Below, piece after piece: positions 1 to 29,132 of a stretch of DNA of 64,000 bases. Below the pieces are notes generated by a model that ran no database searches, was not told the origin of the DNA, and worked only from the letters and a program-made list of their open reading frames with translations. How positions within the stretch are numbered: the first letter of the stretch is position 1; every line of letters begins with the position of its first letter. The translations under genes were made by a program, and so were the position numbers. The stretch is from an uncultured Acidimicrobiia bacterium (GTDB lineage Bacteria > Actinomycetota > Acidimicrobiia > IMCC26256 > JAENVU01): positions 611,215 to 675,214 of the forward strand of contig CAVPAT010000013.1 in assembly GCA_963701625.1 (NCBI GenBank), in the 5' to 3' direction.

Positions 1-276
1 CGCCCACTGCTCCCGCAGTGGTGTCTCCCAGTCCGTGATCGCATCGGAGAGTCCGATCCCCCGCCGGTCGAACACGATCAGACGACCGAGGCCCGCCAGT
101 CCCTCCAAGAGCCGACGGGCGAGTGGATCGTCGGGCAGCGACTCCATCGGGAAGAAGAACCCGTTGACCATGACGATCTCGATATCGCTCGCGGGATCGC
201 CCACATACTCCCGGTAGGCGATGTGATGCTCGCCTGCCCGCGCGTACCGGATCTCGCTGCGCTCGACCACGCCCAA
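1..276 (-). CDS. LipJ-like alpha/beta-hydrolase + class III adenylate cyclase fusion, N-terminal fragment (paralog A); continues past the left edge
   Basis: Reverse strand from TTG at 276 reads MGVVERSEIRYARAGEHHIAYREYVGDPASDI... This closely matches (about 85% by eye) the N-terminus of ORF 4179..5507. The same roughly 45-nt leader lies between the start codon and a tRNA-Thr core repeat. Confidence 0.6.
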   Translation of the reverse strand, partial: MGVVERSEIRYARAGEHHIAYREYVGDPASDIEIVMVNGFFFPMESLPDDPLARRLLEGLAGLGRLIVFDRRGIGLSDAITDWETPLREQWA

Positions 277-321
277 GAACTAGCCGCGCACCGAGCGCGA
301 CCGCCACTCTTGCGATGGAGT

Positions 322-405
322 TGGAGCCGGGAAGGAGATCCGAACTCCTGACCCGCTCATGACGAGCAAGGTCACACCGAGCGCTGTGCTAGCCACCGAA
401 ACCCC
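322..405 (-). pseudogene. tRNA-Thr(CGU)-derived pseudo-tRNA / att-like repeat (copy 1)
   Basis: Positions 322-366 match the 45-nt 3' half of the intact tRNA-Thr (anticodon loop to CCA) at 42/45. The 5' half is degenerate and I could not fold a canonical acceptor/D-arm. The anticodon loop CTCGTCA has a pyrimidine at position 37. Confidence 0.5.
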
Positions 406-491
406 AGTTCACGCTCGAGCGTCGGACCCATAGTTATCTCCTGTAGCGACGCTCGTCGATCGGGCGCACCGGTAAGACCGACTTCCGATCA

Positions 492-1838
492 TCACGGGTG
501 CACTGCGAACAGGTGCCATGAATCGGGGATTCCCTTGAGCGCCTGTTCACCTCGATCCTCGAAACCGATGCCAGAACCGGCAACCAAGTCTGTGACGGTG
601 CGCGACACCAGAACTTCTCGGGGTGCCGCGTGGGCCCCGACGCGGGCAGCGATATGAACCGCGACGCCAGCGATATCGTCCCCTCGACGCTCGCACTCAC
701 CCGTGTGCAATCCGGCTCGTACCTCCAATCCAACGCCTTGAGCCGCACGGACGATCCCGGTGGCGCAGTCGATCGCGCGCGCCGGGCCGTCGAAGCAGGC
801 GAGAAACCCATCTCCGGTCGTCTTGATCTCGCGCCCGCCGAACCGGTGGAGTTCGTTGCGAACACTCTGATCGTGGGTATCGAGGAGCTCCCGCCATCGA
901 CGGTCGCCGACTTCAACCGCGCGTTCGGTCGAACCAACGATGTCGGTGAACAGCACCGTCGTGAGGAAGCGATCGCTCGTCGGCATCGGACGCTGCCCCG
1001 TGAGGAACTCGGCGACGGCTCCGATCACCGGACCGTGGTCGCCAGCGAAGAGATGCGAATCGGAGCCAGGGACCCGGACAAGGCGTGACCCGGGGATGTG
1101 GTCAACCAGGTACTGCGTACGGTCGAGCGCGTTCGCATCCATGGTCGTCGAGCCTTCACTGGTCAAGACCAGCGTCGGCATGGAAATCAACGGCAGCGCG
1201 TCGCGGGCGTCAAGCTCACTGAAGATGTGGTGAAACTGCGCGGCGGCAACCCGGGGAGTTGCGGCGGCACGCATGAGTCGGGCCAGCGCATCGACGTCAC
1301 CACGCTTCCTCGCGAGGCTCGGCATGCTTGCCTCGATCAGCTCCGGCTTTCCCCACAGCAGCTCGATGGCCTCCACCAGTGCTTCGGCCTCGGCTGTGGT
1401 CGTCCCGACGGGGTAGTCGTCGGCCGCGCCGAACCGCGCTGAGGTGTTCCCGAGTATCAGCGCGCTGACACGCTCAGGATGCGCGGCAGCAAAAAGCAGG
1501 CCCATGGGCCCAGCCTCGGCTTCCGCGAACAGTGCGCACCGCTGCGCCCCCACGGCGTCCAGGACCGCGAGGACGTCGAGGTTCCATTCTTCCCACGTGG
1601 GGAATCGTCCCAGCGGCATCCGCTCGGACGCGCCACTGCCGCGACGGTCGAACAGGATCACCCGACTGAACTCGGCCAGGCGCCGGATGAAGCCCGCTTC
1701 CGAGGCGACGTCCCATTGAAGATCGATGTGACAGAACCCGTGATGAAACAGGAGGTCGATCGGACCATCGCCGACAACTTGATAGGCCACCTGCGCGTCG
1801 CCGACCGTCACGTATCGCGTCTCGGGTTGCGCCATCAC
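492..1838 (-). CDS. alpha/beta-hydrolase + class III adenylate/guanylate cyclase fusion (LipJ-like, paralog B)
   Basis: 448-aa ORF. The N-terminal half has an alpha/beta-hydrolase fold (LLFHHGF, FDRRGSG). The C-terminal half has a cyclase catalytic core (FTDIVGSTE...IKTTGDGFLACF...GLHTGE...GVAVHIAARV). Confidence 0.85.
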   Translation of the reverse strand: MMAQPETRYVTVGDAQVAYQVVGDGPIDLLFHHGFCHIDLQWDVASEAGFIRRLAEFSRVILFDRRGSGASERMPLGRFPTWEEWNLDVLAVLDAVGAQRCALFAEAEAGPMGLLFAAAHPERVSALILGNTSARFGAADDYPVGTTTAEAEALVEAIELLWGKPELIEASMPSLARKRGDVDALARLMRAAATPRVAAAQFHHIFSELDARDALPLISMPTLVLTSEGSTTMDANALDRTQYLVDHIPGSRLVRVPGSDSHLFAGDHGPVIGAVAEFLTGQRPMPTSDRFLTTVLFTDIVGSTERAVEVGDRRWRELLDTHDQSVRNELHRFGGREIKTTGDGFLACFDGPARAIDCATGIVRAAQGVGLEVRAGLHTGECERRGDDIAGVAVHIAARVGAHAAPREVLVSRTVTDLVAGSGIGFEDRGEQALKGIPDSWHLFAVHP

Positions 1839-1930
1839 CGAGGATTCTTGCCGATGAGGCGCGGCTGGCAGCTACGACAACGCGAGTGGACCATCAAATC
1901 CTGGACTGGCACCCCGAACTCCGACCGCGA

Positions 1931-2824
1931 TCAAGCCGTCGCGGTGCGGTCGAAAAACTCGGACGCGAGGCGCGTGACGTCGTCGATCGCATCCCAGGCA
2001 GGCGCCAGATGCGTCGCAGGGAGATGCACGACCTCGACGCGCGGATTCTCGGCAACGAGCCCATCGAGTTCACGATCGAGCACCGAGGGCGCGCCCGACT
2101 GGTCGCACCGAACGATCAACGTCGGGCAGCGAACGCCTCGATACATCCGCAGGATGTCCGTTTGACCGCCGTCGGCGAAGCCGCCTTCGAAGAGCAACCG
2201 GCTCGGGTGACGACGAAATCTCCCCTCGCCGATATCGACCAGGTTTCGCTCTGCCATCTCGCGCCCGTTCGGAGCGGTGTAGCCGATCTGCGGGAAGATG
2301 GCCGTGATCGCCTCGACCTGCGCATCGCGCCACGCCCGGTCACCAGTCTCGGGCGGTGCCGTCATCGCCCAGAAGGCTGCCTTCATACCGGCCTGGAATC
2401 CGGCGAACTCCTCGAGATCCTGATCGCTGCCGAGCGTCGGCATTCCTGGCCCGAAGCCGTCGATACTCACGACCCGCGCCTCGGCATGGAGCGACCCGTA
2501 CCAGCCTGCGACGAACCCACCCATGGAGTGGCCGACGAGATCAACCGCGCCGAGTCCGAGCGTCGATACGACCGACTCGACGTCGCGGCGGGCATCGTCC
2601 CAACTGAACGACTCGGGTGTTCCCGACTGGCCGCATGCGCGCAGATCGAACGAAACCGTGGTTCGCTCCGAGCCGAGTCGCTCTGCGAACTGGCTCATCG
2701 ACACGAGGTTCGCACCGCCGCCGTGCAGCAACACCAGCGGTCGACCAGCGCCCCGCGAGTGCACCCGGTACGCAAGCGCGATGCCATCGTGTGCTTCGAG
2801 CGTGCCGTCCTCGACTGTCGTCAT
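1931..2824 (-). CDS. alpha/beta hydrolase
   Basis: 297-aa ORF with LVLLHGGG and the nucleophile elbow GHSMGG. Confidence 0.8.
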   Translation of the reverse strand: MTTVEDGTLEAHDGIALAYRVHSRGAGRPLVLLHGGGANLVSMSQFAERLGSERTTVSFDLRACGQSGTPESFSWDDARRDVESVVSTLGLGAVDLVGHSMGGFVAGWYGSLHAEARVVSIDGFGPGMPTLGSDQDLEEFAGFQAGMKAAFWAMTAPPETGDRAWRDAQVEAITAIFPQIGYTAPNGREMAERNLVDIGEGRFRRHPSRLLFEGGFADGGQTDILRMYRGVRCPTLIVRCDQSGAPSVLDRELDGLVAENPRVEVVHLPATHLAPAWDAIDDVTRLASEFFDRTATA

Positions 2825-3103
2825 CGATCGAGTCTCCTCGACGGTCGATGTTCACGCAATCACCGCTGCGGTCAGGCGGACGACGAGTTGCCAGTCACCG
2901 TCGATGCCTTTGAGGCTCGCGGCACCCCCGGGGCAACGGTCTCGCCGGCAGCCGCCCAGGGTGACTATCTCGCTGACGACCAAGGCATCACCCGACCGAG
3001 CCGTGTCCCTGCGCACGGAACCGCATTTGATGTCGCGCGGGAAAGGGAGCGATCAGTCGTGCGGGCCCTGGATTGATCGCGTCCGCCCCTGCATACTGGG
3101 ACC

Positions 3104-4003
3104 GTGGAGAGGGCAGCTTACGAAGCGAAGCGATTGGAGTTGTTCGAACGGCATGGCTTTGTCGGTGAGGCTCGTTGGGTTGCTGATTCCGATGGTCGCC
3201 GTACCTGGGTATTGGACCGCGACGGCGACACTCGGCCGACGATCCTCATTCACGGCGGATTGTCGCAGGCAGGCAGCTGGTGCCTGGTCGCAGGCAAGCT
3301 CGACGGGCGCGTGGTGATCCCTGACCGCCCCGGGTGGGGATTGAGCTACCCCTTCGATTACCGGTCAACCGATTTCCGACGGGGCTGCGTCGATTGGCTG
3401 AGCACGGTGGTGGACTCGCTCGGCGCTGACGATGTCGACCTCGTTGGCGCATCGATCGGCGGATACATCTCGGCGTCGTTCGCTCTCGCCCACCCTGACC
3501 GCGTGAATCGCCTCGTATCGATCGGCGCAATACCCGGCCTCCCAGGCAAGATCCCACTTCCGCTTCGCCTGATCGGTACCCCCGCAATCGGTCCGGCGAT
3601 GGCGCGCATCAAGATCACCGATCCGGAGGTGAACCGGAAGCGGATCTTCGCGAACCTGGTCGCGCATCCCGAGAACGTTCCGGTCGAGGTACTGCAGGAT
3701 GACATCGACGCGATGGCACTTCCTGGCGCGGGTCGCACGGGCTACACGATGATGCGCTCGATATGCACGCTCGGTGGATTCCGTCCACGTGTGATGATCG
3801 CCGAGGAGCTGCCCCAGCTCAAGTGTCCGGTGTTGTTCCTGTGGGGCGATTCGGATTCGTTCATGCCGATCGACATCGGGGAACAGGTTGCCAGCCGAAT
3901 GCAGAACGCTCGATTCCACCCCTTGACCGACGCGGGCCACAGCCTCGAGATTGATCAACCCGACGTGGTCGCAGAGCAGGTGCAGACCTTTCTGCACCGG
4001 TGA
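3104..4003 (+). CDS. alpha/beta hydrolase
   Basis: 299-aa ORF with a GTG start. Motifs: ILIHGG, GASIGG, and C-terminal GDSD...AGH. The stop lies 13 nt from pseudo-tRNA copy 2. Confidence 0.8.
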   Translation: MERAAYEAKRLELFERHGFVGEARWVADSDGRRTWVLDRDGDTRPTILIHGGLSQAGSWCLVAGKLDGRVVIPDRPGWGLSYPFDYRSTDFRRGCVDWLSTVVDSLGADDVDLVGASIGGYISASFALAHPDRVNRLVSIGAIPGLPGKIPLPLRLIGTPAIGPAMARIKITDPEVNRKRIFANLVAHPENVPVEVLQDDIDAMALPGAGRTGYTMMRSICTLGGFRPRVMIAEELPQLKCPVLFLWGDSDSFMPIDIGEQVASRMQNARFHPLTDAGHSLEIDQPDVVAEQVQTFLHR

Positions 4004-4016
4004 GGTTGCGACAACG

Positions 4017-4100
4017 TGGAGCCGGGAAGGAGATTCGAACTCCTGACCTGCTCATTACGAGCAAGCACCGCCTGAACGCTGCGCTACCCGACGAAACCCC
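4017..4100 (-). pseudogene. tRNA-Thr(CGU)-derived pseudo-tRNA / att-like repeat (copy 2)
   Basis: Positions 4017-4061 are 45/45 identical to the 3' half of the intact tRNA-Thr (5553-5597). The anticodon stem can still pair using two G-U pairs. The acceptor and D-arm are not canonical, with an apparent 1-nt loss in the acceptor. The 5' half resembles copy 1, not the real tRNA. Confidence 0.5.
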
Positions 4101-4178
4101 AGGTCACGCGCGAGCGTGGAACCCACAGTTGTCTGCTGTAGCGCAGCAATCGAAGGGCACCTCCTACTCCAGAGGAAG

Positions 4179-5507
4179 TCAGACGACCGCTTGGAGCCGC
4201 CAGACGCCATCGACGCCCTTCAGCGTGGTTGTGCCGACCGATGCGAACTCAGCCGAAGCTGCGACGAGTGTCACGACCTCTGACACCAGGATCTGTCCGG
4301 CGCTCGCTTCGCCCATGATCCGGGCCGCCACGTTGACGGCAAGACCCGAGACGTCTGCGCCGCGGCGGTCGATCTCACCGACGTGGATTCCGATGCGCAG
4401 TTCCAGGTCCTGCTCGCCGAGCTGAGCGCGGATGGCCTGGGCGGCTTCGATCGCGCTCGTTGCGGTGGGCATGAGCGCGAGGACGCCGTCGCCGGTGGTC
4501 TTGATCACCTCGCCACCGCGGCGGCCGACAGCCGTCCGGTTCACCTCATCATGACGGTCGAGGAGCGTCTTCCACCCCGCGTCGCCGGTCGCTTCCGCCC
4601 GCCTGGTCGAGCCGACCAGGTCGGTGAACAGGATGACTGCCACCTGGCGCTCCGGCGCAGGAAGGTGGACATGACCAGTGACCCACCGGGAGATTTCGGA
4701 AATGACCTGGTCCACCCCGACCCCGAACGGCAGCCCGTCACCGTCCCCCAACGCCACGTGCGTCGCGTCCGGGATCTGCCTCGGTGCACGCTCGAAGTAC
4801 TCCCCCGGAACCACCCAATCCCGTGAGGTGCGCGTGAGGACGAGGGTCGGCGTCGTCACCGTGGCGTTGTCGAATGGCGGGTCCGAGAGGCCCATCTTGT
4901 TCAATCGCGCAGCCATGCTGGGGCTCGCTCCGGCCCGGCCCGCCGCATCGTTCCATTCCCGGAAGGCCGGATCGTCCGCCCGGTTCGGTGCGATAGCCCC
5001 ACCAGACTTCTCCGGCCCCTCCCCTGCCAGGAGGAGCCGCTGGCCTTCGGCGAACTGTGCCACCCACCCCATGTCGTCCTCGGTGATCGGTGCACCGGGG
5101 TTCCACAGGACCATCCGACCGATGAGCTCCGGGTACCGGACCGAACAGGTCCGGGCCACCGCGGCGCTGTGCCAGCTGAACACCGTCGGCCGGTCACACG
5201 CTGCCGCGTCGATCACCGCCTCCAGATCGTCCGCCCACTGCTCACACAACGGCGTGTCCCAATCCGACACCGGGTCCGAGAGGCCGATCCCGCGACGGTC
5301 GAACACGACGAGCCGACCGAGCCCGGCCAGACCCTCCAGGAGCCGGTTCGCGATCGGATCATCCGGGAGCGACTCCATCGGAAAGAACGCGCCGTTGACC
5401 ATGACGATCTCGACGTCACTCGACGGATCGCCCACATACTCCCGGTAGGCGATGTGATGCTCGCCTGCCCGCGCGTACCTGATCTCGCTGCGCTCGACCA
5501 CACCCAA
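4179..5507 (-). CDS. alpha/beta-hydrolase + class III adenylate/guanylate cyclase fusion (LipJ-like, paralog C)
   Basis: 442-aa ORF with a TTG start at 5507 (GTG at 5501 is an alternative). Hydrolase-like N-terminus (FDRRGIGLSD). Cyclase core FTDLVGSTR...IKTTGDGVLALM...GIHVGE...GLAVNVAARI. Confidence 0.85.
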   Translation of the reverse strand: MGVVERSEIRYARAGEHHIAYREYVGDPSSDVEIVMVNGAFFPMESLPDDPIANRLLEGLAGLGRLVVFDRRGIGLSDPVSDWDTPLCEQWADDLEAVIDAAACDRPTVFSWHSAAVARTCSVRYPELIGRMVLWNPGAPITEDDMGWVAQFAEGQRLLLAGEGPEKSGGAIAPNRADDPAFREWNDAAGRAGASPSMAARLNKMGLSDPPFDNATVTTPTLVLTRTSRDWVVPGEYFERAPRQIPDATHVALGDGDGLPFGVGVDQVISEISRWVTGHVHLPAPERQVAVILFTDLVGSTRRAEATGDAGWKTLLDRHDEVNRTAVGRRGGEVIKTTGDGVLALMPTATSAIEAAQAIRAQLGEQDLELRIGIHVGEIDRRGADVSGLAVNVAARIMGEASAGQILVSEVVTLVAASAEFASVGTTTLKGVDGVWRLQAVV

Positions 5508-5552
5508 GAACTAGCCGCGCACCACGCGCAACCGCCACTCTCACGACGGAGT

Positions 5553-5628
5553 TGGAGCCGGGAAGGAGATTCGAACTCCTGACCTGCTCATTACGAGTGA
5601 GCTGCTCTGCCGACTGAGCTATCCCGGC
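5553..5628 (-). tRNA. tRNA-Thr (anticodon CGU)
   Basis: 76 nt, hand-folded: GCCGGGA TA GCTC AGTCGGCA GAGC A GCTCA CTCGTAA TGAGC AGGTC AGGAG TTCGAAT CTCCT TCCCGGC T CCA. All four stems are Watson-Crick and CCA is encoded. Confidence 0.93.
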
Positions 5629-5761
5629 GGGGTCGGGCAGTGTACCCAAGGCCCAGCGCGCCCCCGGGCTTCAGGGTTCGGGATTTCTCGCGCCGCGCCC
5701 GACCGTAGGCTCGGCCACGGAGGCGCGCGTTCGGGCCCGACTGGTGAAGTGACCGCGCGGC

Positions 5762-6758
5762 CTACGCCACCGCTGGAAGCTGCGACACCAGGTGCAGCAA
5801 CAGCGGGCCGACCGCCGGGTTGAACTCGTCGGCCTGCCGGGCGGCGCGGCACGCATCGAGCGCGTCCGCAGCACGGTCGACGGCGACCGGCGGCGCGTCG
5901 TCACGGCCGGCGAGCACATCGAGATAGGACGACTCCATCGCGGCGATGGACTCCATCAGCGCGTCGGTCTTGGCGCGCTTCAGCTCCTGTTTGTGACGTT
6001 CCACCATTCGGCGCCGCATCGACGTTGCCGTCCGCGGCGGATACCCCCGAGCTTCGATCTCGGCTTCGAGCGTCTCGAGTTCCTGCGCGGCCGCGACCTC
6101 GGCAGCGGCGCCGGCGGCCTCCAGCGCGGCCTCGAGGTCTTCCACGATTGCGACAGTCGTTGCGGCGCGTCCGTCGACGCGAGTCACTGCGGCCGCGAAC
6201 ACGGCACGCGTCGCGTCGATCGCCTCGGTCCGAACCGGCGCGGCGTAACCGAAGTCGATCCGCTGACATCGAGAACGGATCGTGGGCAGCAGAGACTCCG
6301 GCCGGTCCGTCAGCAACACGATGATCGTGCGGGGCGGCGGTTCTTCGATGCTCTTGAGCAACATGTTCCCAGCAGTGGGCTCGAGCCGATCCGCTTCGTG
6401 CAGCATCACGACCTTCCGGTCGGCTTCGACCGGCGCCTTGTGGATTTCGGGTATCACCCGGGGAAGAGCCGCGTCCGCGTCGCGCGCTCTCCCCAGCCCG
6501 AGGGGCGCGGATCTCGTTCGCCAACGTGTACTGGCTCGTCGTGGGTTCGAACTCCACCACATCGGGGTGCGTGCCCCGTTGCACCAGGCCGCGGGACCGG
6601 TCGTCGGTGACGCCGATCACGTCCGCGGCAAAGGCCCGAGCCGCCACGGCGATGCCGGAACCGCGGGAGCCGACGAGAAGGTATGCGTGCGACGGTCGGG
6701 CCGCGGCGGCGCGAAGCGAAGCGATTGCAGCTTCCTGGCCGACGATGTCCTCCCACAT
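5762..6758 (-). CDS. holB: DNA polymerase III subunit delta' (apparent frameshift)
   Basis: The N-terminus MWEDIVGQEAAIASLRAAAARPSHAYLLVGSRGSG comes from the frame of ORF 5901..6854, with ATG at 6758. The remainder (KVVMLHEADRLEPTAGNMLLKSIEEPPPRTIIVLLT...SRCQRI) is in the frame of ORF 5762..6562. The frames switch near the C4 run at 6502-6505. Confidence 0.85.
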
Positions 6759-29038: not shown

Positions 29039-29132
29039 GGAGGTGAACGGGGTCTGGTGGCCCCCCTCGTCTTCAAAACGAGTGGGACGGGCGAACCCCG
29101 TCCGGTGGGTTCGATTCCTGCCACCTCCGCCA
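29039..29132 (+). tRNA. selC: tRNA-Sec (anticodon UCA)
   Basis: 94 nt, hand-folded. Anticodon loop CTTCAAA on a 5-bp stem. 6-bp D-stem GGGGTC/GGCCCC with the 4-nt loop TGGT, a Sec hallmark. 7-bp variable-arm stem GGACGGG/CCCGTCC. T-loop TTCGATT. Discriminator G plus CCA. The acceptor pairs only 7 bp as sequenced (A8 is opposite C). Confidence 0.85.

What the first reader, a model, noticed from the sequence alone, without database searches (positions are those of the whole stretch)
1..5628. Three direct copies of the tRNA-Thr 3' half bound cassettes that each carry a hydrolase-cyclase fusion gene
Seen in sequence:
- The 45-nt segment from the anticodon loop to CCA of tRNA-Thr(CGU) (5553-5597) recurs in the same orientation at 4017-4061 (45/45) and 322-366 (42/45).
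- Reading the minus strand, the order is: tRNA 5' half, core, 45-nt leader L, cyclase C, conserved roughly 90-nt segment X, core, two alpha/beta hydrolases and cyclase B, X', core, L', cyclase A...
- L and L' (5508-5552 versus 277-321) and the cyclase A and C N-termini are very similar.
- X and X' (4062-4165 versus 367-470) are roughly three-quarters identical by eye, although the adjacent cyclases B and C have diverged to about 30% amino-acid identity.

Inference: the arrangement [tRNA5'-core-L-gene-X-core] is what integration of a small circle (core-L-gene-X) into the tRNA 3' end would produce. The tandem structure suggests serial integration or unequal recombination. The cassettes are only 1.5-3.7 kb, and I see no integrase in the window.

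The pattern therefore resembles gene-cassette capture at a tRNA-derived attachment site more than a normal genomic island. It also expands one signalling family, the LipJ-like alpha/beta-hydrolase + class III cyclase fusions.
Basis: partly seen in the sequence, partly recalled or inferred. Interest (0 to 1): 0.75.

Follow-up and report, generated by a model that had tools for sequence, protein, structure and literature searches.

The report
Cyclase gene cassettes stacked behind tRNA-Thr
Behind a threonine tRNA gene of an uncultured soil actinobacterium, short gene cassettes (mostly signalling cyclases) are stacked, each ending in a decayed tRNA copy; the set differs between related genomes, which points to a known process, repeated insertion at a tRNA gene, here in miniature and with no integrase in view.

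Summary
The 45-nt anticodon-loop-to-CCA segment of tRNA-Thr(CGU) occurs three times in direct orientation: 5553-5597, 4017-4061 (45/45) and 322-366 (42/45). None is expected by chance.

It is about 127 nt: X (82 nt) plus the core, and it forms a pseudo-tRNA.

A syntenic relative, L111, shows the empty site: holB, tRNA-Thr, L, cyclase, GFA. Against it, the window carries 5,231 bp inserted exactly at the core.

The same joint bounds different cassette sets in seven other contigs, so the locus is polymorphic. In a relative (L006), the same cyclase family sits inside an integrative element at tRNA-Arg. That element has a tyrosine integrase and a perfect 44-nt repeat starting in the anticodon loop.

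Best reading (confidence 0.5): the joints are attR-type scars from integration at the tRNA. Units were then multiplied, lost and swapped by recombination between the scars.

No integrase or circular junction was found for the tRNA-Thr arrays, and the array runs off the left end of the window.

Rivals: tandem duplication of a tRNA-cyclase unit with the pseudo-tRNA kept as an RNA processing signal; RecA-driven exchange.

Novelty: a new variant of a known kind.

The parts
5553..5628 (-). Functional tRNA-Thr(CGU). Its 3' 45 nt (5553-5597, anticodon loop to CCA) is core copy C.
   Evidence: ARAGORN. Rfam tRNA model 70.3 bits. Identical or near-identical in L003, L007, L047 and L111.
5502..5552 (-). 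L: the leader between the tRNA 3' end and the cycC start codon. It contains a small terminator-like hairpin.
   Evidence: 84% repeat with 271-321 (D1). The GAGAGTGGCGG...GCGGCTAG motif lies upstream of the cyclase in L003, L007, L009, L046, L047, L106, L107, L108 and L111. Hairpin.
4179..5501 (-). cycC: alpha/beta-hydrolase-like N-terminal domain plus class III cyclase domain (440 aa, equals P0001).
   Evidence: Pfam Guanylate_cyc 1.5e-9. Exact match to P0001. Groups with P0002, P0003, P0004 and the L007 protein.
4062..4143 (-). X: the conserved 82-nt segment of joint B. Its last 31 nt (4062-4092) are a degenerate tRNA 5' half.
   Evidence: nhmmer X model E=7e-22.
4017..4061 (-). Core copy B (45/45). 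With 4062-4092 it forms pseudo-tRNA B.
   Evidence: ARAGORN call, but Rfam gives 24.6 bits, below the 29-bit threshold.
3104..4003 (+). hyd1: stand-alone alpha/beta hydrolase with a GASIG nucleophile motif. It converges on core B.
   Evidence: Pfam Abhydrolase_6 2.7e-19. Motif. An independent contig, L002, covers the gene and its junction with core B.
2864..2990 (-). Relic of the C-terminus of another A/C-type cyclase (…VVSEIVTL…SLKGIDGDWQLVV…stop).
   Evidence: blastn match to the 3' end of the L007 cyclase gene. Translation.
1931..2824 (-). hyd2: stand-alone alpha/beta hydrolase with a GHSMG motif.
   Evidence: Pfam Abhydrolase_6 1.3e-18. Exact protein in other samples. L001 is 100% identical.
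492..1838 (-). cycB: alpha/beta hydrolase plus class III cyclase fusion, 33% identical to cycA and cycC. The start codon is uncertain (1838 or 1835).
   Evidence: Pfam Abhydrolase_1 2.5e-13 and Guanylate_cyc 1.5e-12. Identities.
367..448 (-). X': the conserved segment of joint A.
   Evidence: nhmmer E=1.9e-22. 82-87% identical to the X copies of winB, L047, L106 and L107, although the upstream gene is unrelated.
322..366 (-). Core copy A (42/45). All three changes lie in loops or the variable region. With 367-397 it forms pseudo-tRNA A.
   Evidence: Alignment. No Rfam tRNA hit.
271..321 (-). L': the leader of cycA.
   Evidence: (D1).
1..270 (-). cycA N-terminus. The gene runs off the left end of the window; the full protein is P0006 (436 aa).
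   Evidence: cycA is closer than cycC to the single native cyclase of L111 (83% versus 77% nt).
5762..6562 (-). holB-like gene (DNA polymerase III delta'). This is the conserved chromosomal flank upstream of the tRNA.
   Evidence: Pfam DNA_pol3_delta2 4.7e-23. Syntenic in L003, L007 and L111.

Best explanation
This is the tRNA-proximal part of a polymorphic array of small cassettes behind tRNA-Thr(CGU), in an uncultured Acidimicrobiia bacterium.

The native arrangement is holB, tRNA-Thr, L, cyclase, GFA. An integrative element whose attP carried X plus a copy of the tRNA 3' part recombined with the tRNA in the anticodon loop. This is tyrosine-recombinase type recombination. It left an attR-type scar, X plus core, which is a pseudo-tRNA.

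Further units accumulated at the intact tRNA, each bounded by such a scar. They arrived either by new integrations or by unequal crossing-over between scars. Older units were pushed distally.

Recombination and gene conversion between the 45-nt cores, L and the cyclase 5' ends then duplicated, deleted and exchanged units. That recombination also keeps the cores close to the working tRNA.

The cassettes seen here encode no recombinase. Any present-day mobility would need one supplied in trans.

Shown: the repeat structure, exact boundaries, the empty site, polymorphism, conservation of the joint, and an integrase-bearing relative. Inferred: the recombinase, circular intermediates, and the order of events.
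For: 1. The identity block starts at the first base of the anticodon loop and runs to CCA. It is 45/45 in copy B, while the adjacent 31 nt are only about 65-77% like the real 5' half.

2. Empty site. L111 is syntenic (topA, MFS, tmk, holB, tRNA-Thr, L, cyclase, GFA) and has one core. The window has 5,231 bp more, bounded by cores.

3. The same joint occurs in L046, L047, L106, L107 and L108-110 (nhmmer E 1e-18 to 1e-24). It sits between different neighbours: an A- or C-clade cyclase, a thioesterase, a hydrolase, or cycB.

4. X stays 82-95% identical where the upstream gene is unrelated.

5. In L006 the cyclase family is cargo of a 5.7-kb element. It has tRNA-Arg, a tyrosine integrase (PF00589, 8e-23), a cyclase, an HTH_17 protein and a PIN protein, and a perfect 44-nt repeat starting in the anticodon loop. 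L005 has a 57-nt tRNA-Ala repeat bounding 3.9 kb next to a cyclase. L009 has three pseudo-tRNA-Val joints.

6. Two clades are present. cycA groups with the native cyclases of L111 and L003. cycC groups with those of L007, L046 and L047. By holB and by overall synteny the window is nearer L003 and L111.

7. The first 38 aa of P0095 are identical to cycC, against 57% overall. This points to gene conversion at unit 5' ends.
Against: - No integrase was found in the 64-kb window. This rests on a motif scan and a tblastn with the L006 integrase only. None was found on any tRNA-Thr array contig either, though most of those are under 4 kb.
- X was not found in IMG/VR, INPHARED phages or PLSDB plasmids.
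- The pseudo-tRNAs keep their acceptor (89%), anticodon (94%) and T (100%) stems paired. Two T-stem pairs show compensatory changes, both in L046. Only the D stem is lost (36%). This looks like an RNA-level constraint.
- The sequence after the core is conserved only for cyclase units (L), not for the others.
- The core-L junction of the cyclase units equals the native flank of L111. Simple import of unrelated circles therefore does not explain them.
- The distal end of the array, left of the window, could not be read. The source contig is withheld from look-ups.
Confidence: 0.5

Rival explanations
1. Tandem duplication of a tRNA-cyclase transcription unit. The cyclase is co-transcribed with tRNA-Thr. 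Duplicated units keep a tRNA-like leader (acceptor, anticodon and T stems) as an RNase P/Z processing or stability signal for the downstream cyclase mRNA. The D arm and tRNA function decay. Differences between genomes come from differential loss.
For: - Only about 50 nt separate the tRNA 3' end from the cyclase start codon, and no sigma-70-like promoter was found in 1-6000.
- Three of the four stems are retained, with wobble-compatible or compensatory changes, and the D stem is lost.
- Core substitutions fall in loops (copies A and L108) or in compensated T-stem pairs (L046).
- X diverges at about the rate of the neighbouring coding DNA.
- By eye, the start of X (CGCTACAG) resembles both the native 3' flank of the cyclase and the -10 region of the tRNA.
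Against: - In three of seven cases the joint is not followed by L-cyclase (winB, L047, L106). In two it is not preceded by an A/C-type cyclase (winA, L107).
- hyd1 is on the opposite strand inside the array.
- The region upstream of the real tRNA does not align convincingly with X.
- Identity is 45/45 in the core against about 70% in the 5' half, a step expected from recombination rather than uniform constraint.
- The T-stem covariation comes from a single sequence and may simply reflect another lineage's tRNA.
Confidence: 0.25
2. Homology-driven exchange with no dedicated recombinase. The conserved tRNA, the joints and L act as portable homology. RecA-mediated recombination, after transformation or conjugation between related Acidimicrobiia, inserts, deletes and swaps the segments between them.
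For: - Gene-conversion signature: the first 38 aa of P0095 are identical to cycC.
- The X copies of L047 and L107, from one sample, are 94% alike, while those of the window are 82% alike. This suggests concerted evolution within an array.
- No integrase was seen.
- cycC belongs to a clade otherwise found in the more distant L007, L046 and L047 lineages.
Against: - It does not explain how the first X-core junction arose, nor why identity starts exactly at the anticodon loop.
- 45-127 nt of homology is short for efficient RecA recombination.
- Integrase-made repeats of the same kind exist in relatives (L006).
Confidence: 0.2
3. Assembly artefact: a metagenome-assembled contig that wrongly joins or multiplies repeats around a tRNA.
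For: The source is a MAG contig of 786,811 bp. Repeats are a classic cause of mis-joins.
Against: - Independent Logan contigs from other samples match 1925-3136 (100%) and 3056-4046 (99.8%, including the hyd1/core-B junction).
- The three units are diverged: 84%, 83% and 42/45. They are not collapsed identical repeats.
- The same architecture appears in JGI, Logan and ENA contigs.
Confidence: 0.02

Closest known systems
Genomic islands and integrative elements inserted in tRNA genes by tyrosine recombinases (anticodon-loop sublocation; e.g. actinomycete integrative elements such as pSAM2).
   Same: The direct repeat equals the tRNA segment from the anticodon loop to the 3' end. The intact tRNA is at one end and a tRNA fragment at the other. 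There is an empty site in relatives. L006 in this data set is a textbook case.
   Different: The units here are 1.5-3.7 kb and encode no integrase or excisionase. The fragment-side arm (X) is itself a tRNA-like 5' half, conserved across units and genomes.
Tandem accretion and cis-mobilizable elements (CIMEs) of streptococcal ICEs and IMEs. Based on the titles and abstracts of PMC6323972 and PMC5704250 listed, and on my own knowledge.
   Same: Elements bounded by att sites but lacking recombination genes, sitting in tandem with others at one attachment site, and presumed to be mobilised by a neighbour's integrase.
   Different: No partner ICE or IME with an integrase is visible here. The host is Acidimicrobiia, the target is a tRNA, and the cargo is signalling enzymes.
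Tycheposon-shaped genomic islands of Prochlorococcus (bioRxiv 10.1101/2020.12.28.424599, passages read).
   Same: [quoted passage not shown] Degenerated remnants and further partial tRNAs are scattered through the islands.
   Different: Tycheposons carry integrases and replication modules. Here only cargo and scars are seen, the scars share a conserved 82-nt arm, and one gene family dominates the cargo.
Integrons (intI, attI, and an array of attC-bounded promoterless cassettes). Own knowledge.
   Same: A one-way array of mostly single-gene cassettes, each ending in a conserved site of about 130 nt. Insertion appears to occur at one proximal site. The cassette set is polymorphic.
   Different: There is no IntI next to the proximal site; holB and the tRNA lie there. 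The X hairpin is not significantly stable (z from -1.7 to +0.6). The site is derived from a tRNA. One gene is on the opposite strand.
tRNA gene fragments mis-called as tRNA genes (PMC9897764, abstract seen).
   Same: ARAGORN calls 4017-4092, and the joints of L106 and L107, tRNA-Thr, although they score below the Rfam threshold.
   Different: These are not bare fragments. They are full-length hybrids of a decayed 5' half and an intact 3' half.
LipJ/Rv1900c-type alpha/beta-hydrolase plus class III cyclase proteins. Architecture from my own knowledge.
   Same: The domain order: Abhydrolase_1 plus Guanylate_cyc in cycB, and a hydrolase-like N-terminal domain plus Guanylate_cyc in cycA, cycC and cycD.
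   Different: None of the fusions has the GxSxG nucleophile motif at the expected place, whereas hyd1 and hyd2 do. No direct comparison with Rv1900c was made.

Membership tests
tRNA-targeting integrative element / genomic island (tyrosine recombinase) | Direct repeats made of the 3' part of the target tRNA bound the inserted DNA | tested here: met
   Three cores at 5553-5597, 4017-4061 and 322-366. None is expected by chance.
tRNA-targeting integrative element / genomic island (tyrosine recombinase) | The element encodes an integrase | tested here: not met
   All ORFs of 1-5628 are cyclases or hydrolases. No tyrosine-recombinase motif and no tblastn hit in the 64-kb window. Serine recombinases were not screened, and the distal end of the array lies outside the window.
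tRNA-targeting integrative element / genomic island (tyrosine recombinase) | An empty site in related genomes, with boundaries exactly at the repeat | tested here: met
   L111 has holB, tRNA-Thr, L, cyclase and GFA with one core. The window has 5,231 bp more between cores.
tRNA-targeting integrative element / genomic island (tyrosine recombinase) | Excision to a circle carrying attP | not testable with these tools
   This needs raw reads or PCR. No X-core sequence was found in viral, plasmid or phage collections.
Cis-mobilizable element (CIME) | Bounded by att sites, with no recombination or transfer genes of its own | tested here: met
Cis-mobilizable element (CIME) | Mobilised together with, or by, an adjacent integrase-bearing element at the same site | not testable with these tools
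   The left continuation of the array cannot be read.
Integron | An intI gene and attI adjacent to the first cassette | tested here: not met
   holB, MFS and topA lie next to the tRNA. No tyrosine recombinase in the window.
Integron | Cassettes end in an attC site that folds as an imperfect hairpin | tested here: not met
   RNAalifold proposes a hairpin in X. Single-sequence folds are not better than shuffles, on either strand (z from -1.7 to +0.6; folded with RNA parameters only).
Functional tRNA gene (copies B and A) | Reaches the Rfam tRNA gathering score with an intact cloverleaf | tested here: not met
   Copy B scores 24.6 bits against a 29-bit threshold. Copy A gets no hit. The real gene scores 70.3 bits. 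The D stem is paired in 36% of cells across 7 joints.
LipJ-like alpha/beta-hydrolase plus class III cyclase | An N-terminal alpha/beta-hydrolase fold followed by a class III cyclase catalytic domain | tested here: met
   cycB matches both Pfam domains. cycC matches Guanylate_cyc, and its relatives match PF00561 or PF12697. The FTDxVGST and GDG metal-binding motifs are present.
LipJ-like alpha/beta-hydrolase plus class III cyclase | Sequence or structure relationship to Rv1900c itself | not tested
   No comparison with Rv1900c or its solved structures was run.

The most novel reading that the evidence does not exclude
The ~127-nt pseudo-tRNA joints (X plus the tRNA 3' part) are dedicated recombination sites of an integron-like cassette platform anchored on a tRNA gene. 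A recombinase supplied in trans would insert and excise 1.5-4 kb integrase-less cassettes at the anticodon loop. Sister platforms would exist on other tRNAs: L009 has three pseudo-tRNA-Val joints that share the motif AGCACAGCGCT with X at the same register. Acidimicrobiia would use the system to collect and shuffle signalling genes.
Probability: 0.2. Interest if true: 0.8.

Novelty: new variant of a known kind. Interest (0 to 1): 0.55.

Why it matters
Islands at tRNA genes are textbook, but they are usually tens of kilobases long and carry their own integrase. Here the units are single-gene sized and carry no integrase. They are separated by a conserved pseudo-tRNA joint and differ between related uncultured soil Acidimicrobiia.

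If the joints are active sites, this is a second, tRNA-based route to integron-like gene capture, in a phylum with almost no genetics.

If they are RNA processing signals, this is a bacterial case of tRNA-like punctuation of mRNAs.

Either way it shows how one family of cAMP/cGMP-signalling genes is expanded and exchanged. It also shows that tRNA finders mis-call such joints as tRNA genes.

Tried and rejected
- **Reading left of the window.** Exact-protein look-ups for cycB (two start codons), cycA (P0006) and the third paralogue P0095 all returned nothing. The 786,811-bp source contig is withheld. The distal end of the array and any integrase there remain unseen.
- **Exact-pattern scans.** The X/core junction was sought in IMG/VR and JGI metagenome contigs, and the core and an X motif in IMG/VR. 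All gave 0 hits. L047 contains the pattern, so its JGI sample is evidently not in the scanned metagenome collection.
- **blastn of the joint against PLSDB plasmids and INPHARED phages.** Only ordinary tRNA matches to the core were found.
- **Simple tandem duplication of [core-L-cyc-flank].** Rejected as a full explanation. The terminal copies in L046, L107 and L111 are followed by GFA, not by X.
- **X as a stable hairpin or attC-like site.** Not supported.
- **X as a copy of the region upstream of the real tRNA.** There is no convincing alignment. Only a short CGCTACA resemblance was seen by eye.
- **Encoded CCA as a marker of element-derived cores.** Dropped, because the empty-site genome L111 also encodes CCA.
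- **tblastx of the flanks after the second core in L047 and L106.** No shared gene was found.
- **Integrase search.** A first translation of the L006 integrase was in the wrong frame and was redone.

Full report
**Observation**

The 45-nt segment from the anticodon loop to CCA of tRNA-Thr(CGU) occurs three times on the minus strand. The copies are at 5553-5597, 4017-4061 (45/45) and 322-366 (42/45). None is expected in shuffled sequence, and there is no other copy in the 64-kb window.

- L plus the cyclase N-terminus: 5232-5531 versus 1-300, 84% identical.
- X plus core: 4017-4143 versus 322-448, 83% identical.

Reading the minus strand, the order is:
1. holB, then tRNA-Thr, then L
2. cycC, X, core B
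3. hyd1 (opposite strand), a cyclase relic, hyd2, cycB, X', core A
4. L', cycA (cut by the window end)

Logan contigs from two other samples reproduce 1925-3136 and 3056-4046. The second includes the hyd1/core-B junction. Cassette B and that junction are therefore independently confirmed; the remaining order rests on this contig alone.

**What the repeat really is**

The repeated joint is not just 45 nt. The 31 nt before each downstream core are a degenerate tRNA 5' half, preceded by about 51 conserved nt.

ARAGORN calls 4017-4092 a second tRNA-Thr. The Rfam tRNA model gives it 24.6 bits, below the 29-bit threshold, against 70.3 bits for the real gene. Copy A gets no hit.

I counted cloverleaf pairs across seven such joints from the window and five other loci:

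| Stem | Cells paired |
|---|---|
| Acceptor | 89% |
| Anticodon | 94% |
| T | 100% (two compensatory pairs, both in L046) |
| D | 36% |

A hairpin that RNAalifold proposed in the upstream part of X is not more stable than shuffled sequence.

Cassette B also contains, at 2864-2990, the relic of the C-terminus of another A/C-type cyclase. It is therefore a composite.

**Where the window comes from, and the empty site**

The relatives are uncultured Acidimicrobiia MAGs. The source contig, 786,811 bp, is withheld from the look-up tools. I could not read left of the window.

L111 is syntenic with the window across topA, MFS, tmk and holB (71-79% nt identity). It shows holB, tRNA-Thr, L, cyclase, GFA with a single core and no X. 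L003 and L007 also have one core.

Against L111, the window carries 5,231 bp inserted exactly between the core and the L-cyclase flank (D1 spacing).

cycA is closer than cycC to the single native cyclase of L111 (83% versus 77% nt). In the NJ tree cycA groups with the L111/L003 type, while cycC groups with the L007/L046/L047 type. By holB the window genome is nearer L003 than L007. cycC therefore looks like an old paralogue or an import, not the native copy.

**Polymorphism**

The same X-core joint turns up in other contigs with different neighbours (nhmmer E 1e-18 to 1e-24):

| Locus | Arrangement |
|---|---|
| L047 | tRNA-Thr, L, cyclase (83% to cycC), X, core, then unrelated DNA |
| L107 (same sample as L047) | thioesterase-like gene, small ORF, X, core, L, A-clade cyclase, GFA |
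| L106 | core, L, cyclase 92% identical to cycA, X, core, then unrelated DNA; here the cycA type has its own distal joint and follows the first core on the contig |
| L108-110 | core end, hydrolase, L, cyclase, X, core |
| L046 | cyclase, X, diverged core, L, cyclase (85% to cycC), GFA |

X is 82-95% identical even where the gene upstream is unrelated. Where both neighbours are cyclases, X diverges at about the rate of the coding DNA.

**Link to real integrative elements**

L006 is an Acidimicrobiaceae MAG. In it, a homologue of these cyclases (54% identical) lies inside a 5.7-kb element with:
- a tyrosine integrase directly after tRNA-Arg(ACG) (PF00589, 8e-23);
- an HTH_17 protein, a PIN protein and an Xre-like protein;
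- a perfect 44-nt direct repeat that begins in the anticodon loop;
- an arm-like repeat near both ends.

Other loci show related patterns:
- L005: a 57-nt repeat of the tRNA-Ala 3' part bounds 3.9 kb holding a transposase, a GNAT and a nucleotidyltransferase but no integrase. A cyclase lies about 100 nt beyond.
- L009: three ~130-nt joints made of a conserved arm plus a pseudo-tRNA-Val. They bound a LuxR plus cycB-like cassette and an NHL-protein cassette. They share AGCACAGCGCT with X at the same distance from the anticodon loop.

Of the nine closest genome loci, five have a tRNA or tRNA fragment within 1.5 kb upstream of, or a few kb from, the cyclase. That is far more than position by chance would give (the chance estimate is my own).

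**Mechanism**

The step from 100% identity to about 70% falls exactly at the start of the anticodon loop. Together with the empty site and the L006 precedent, this points to site-specific integration at the tRNA as the origin of the X-core joint. The joint would be an attR-type scar.

The core-L junction of the cyclase units is the same as the native flank in L111. These units are therefore derived from the native locus. A simple path has three steps:
1. integration of an X-bearing element;
2. duplication of the scar-plus-cyclase unit by unequal crossing-over, or its excision and re-integration;
3. loss or replacement of cargo.

Recombination between cores would explain three things: deletions (L111-like states), different orders (L106), and why the cores stay close to the working tRNA. 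The first 38 aa of paralogue P0095 are identical to cycC, against 57% overall. This is direct evidence of conversion at unit 5' ends.

I put 0.5 on this account. The recombinase, the circles and the order of events are inferred.

**Rivals**

- **RNA-level reading (0.25).** The retained stems and loop-biased substitutions fit duplicated tRNA-cyclase transcription units whose pseudo-tRNA serves as an RNase P/Z processing signal. Against it: the joints often lack a downstream L-cyclase, and one gene is on the opposite strand.
- **RecA-driven exchange using the joints as portable homology (0.2).** It fits the conversion signal, but not the origin of the junction.
- **Assembly artefact.** Very unlikely.

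**Known relatives and novelty**

The pattern matches known behaviour:
- tandem accretion at tRNA attachment sites and cis-mobilizable elements;
- tycheposon islands, where incoming elements push older ones inward and leave partial tRNAs.

What is unusual is the combination. The units are gene-sized and integrase-less. The joint is a conserved, full-length pseudo-tRNA. One signalling family recurs as cargo. A sister array exists on a different tRNA.

I did not find X in viral, phage or plasmid collections. I rate it a new variant of a known kind, with interest 0.55.

The most novel reading not excluded is an integron-like cassette platform anchored on a tRNA (probability about 0.2).

Noticed in passing
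window 2864-2990 (-): Relic of the C-terminus of a further A/C-type cyclase, lying between hyd1 and hyd2. Its DNA matches the 3' end of the L007 cyclase gene better than the 3' end of cycC does.
   Followed up: partly
Source contig outside the window (protein P0095): A third A/C-type paralogue on the same 786,811-bp contig. It is 57% identical to cycC overall, but its first 38 residues are identical to cycC, which looks like gene conversion. Its position is unknown.
   Followed up: partly
L006 8484-14266: A complete small integrative element (5.7 kb) at tRNA-Arg(ACG). It has a tyrosine integrase, a LipJ-like cyclase, an HTH_17 protein, a PIN protein, a perfect 44-nt att repeat, and the arm-like repeat GAGAACCGATTGAGAACC near both ends.
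   Followed up: yes
L009 2059-2140, 5600-5680, 8268-8340: Three copies of a ~130-nt repeat made of a conserved arm plus a pseudo-tRNA-Val(TAC). They bound cassettes (LuxR plus cycB-like; NHL/Calx-beta protein). No real tRNA and no integrase lie within the 21 kb.
   Followed up: partly
L005 5918-5974 and 9850-9906: A 57-nt direct repeat (56/57) of the tRNA-Ala(TGC) 3' part bounds a 3.9-kb islet with an IS630-like transposase, a GNAT and a nucleotidyltransferase. There is no integrase.
   Followed up: yes
L031 9666-9740 and 15053-15086: In an alphaproteobacterial MAG, tRNA-Gly(GCC) and a 34-nt 3' fragment lie 5.3 kb apart. The first gene after the tRNA is an alpha/beta-hydrolase-LuxR fusion related to the hydrolase domain of the cyclases.
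   Followed up: partly
window 5516-5528 (-), inside L: A terminator-like hairpin (CGCGTGGTGCGCG followed by GCTAGTTCTT) between the tRNA and the cycC start codon. The matching part of L is conserved upstream of the cyclases in relatives.
   Followed up: no
window cycA, cycB, cycC (and P0095) versus hyd1, hyd2: The cyclase fusions lack the GxSxG nucleophile motif of alpha/beta hydrolases, while the stand-alone hydrolases have it (GASIG, GHSMG). The fused domain is probably not catalytic. cycB has VHIAAR where the others have VNVAAR.
   Followed up: partly
window 29039-29132 (+): A tRNA-SeC(TCA) gene, which implies selenoprotein machinery in this Acidimicrobiia genome.
   Followed up: no
L003 8640-9862 (-): Between tRNA-Thr and L-cyclase, L003 carries a 1.3-kb minus-strand ORF that, in my by-eye translation, looks like a different class III cyclase. 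It was not scanned against Pfam, and my first coordinates gave stop codons.
   Followed up: no
window 3500-4250: G+C dips to 0.61-0.62 over hyd1 and joint B, against 0.65-0.70 around it.
   Followed up: no
L009 10001-11310: The A-clade cyclase of L009 is split by a frameshift (two tblastn segments). It is either a pseudogene or a long-read assembly error.
   Followed up: no
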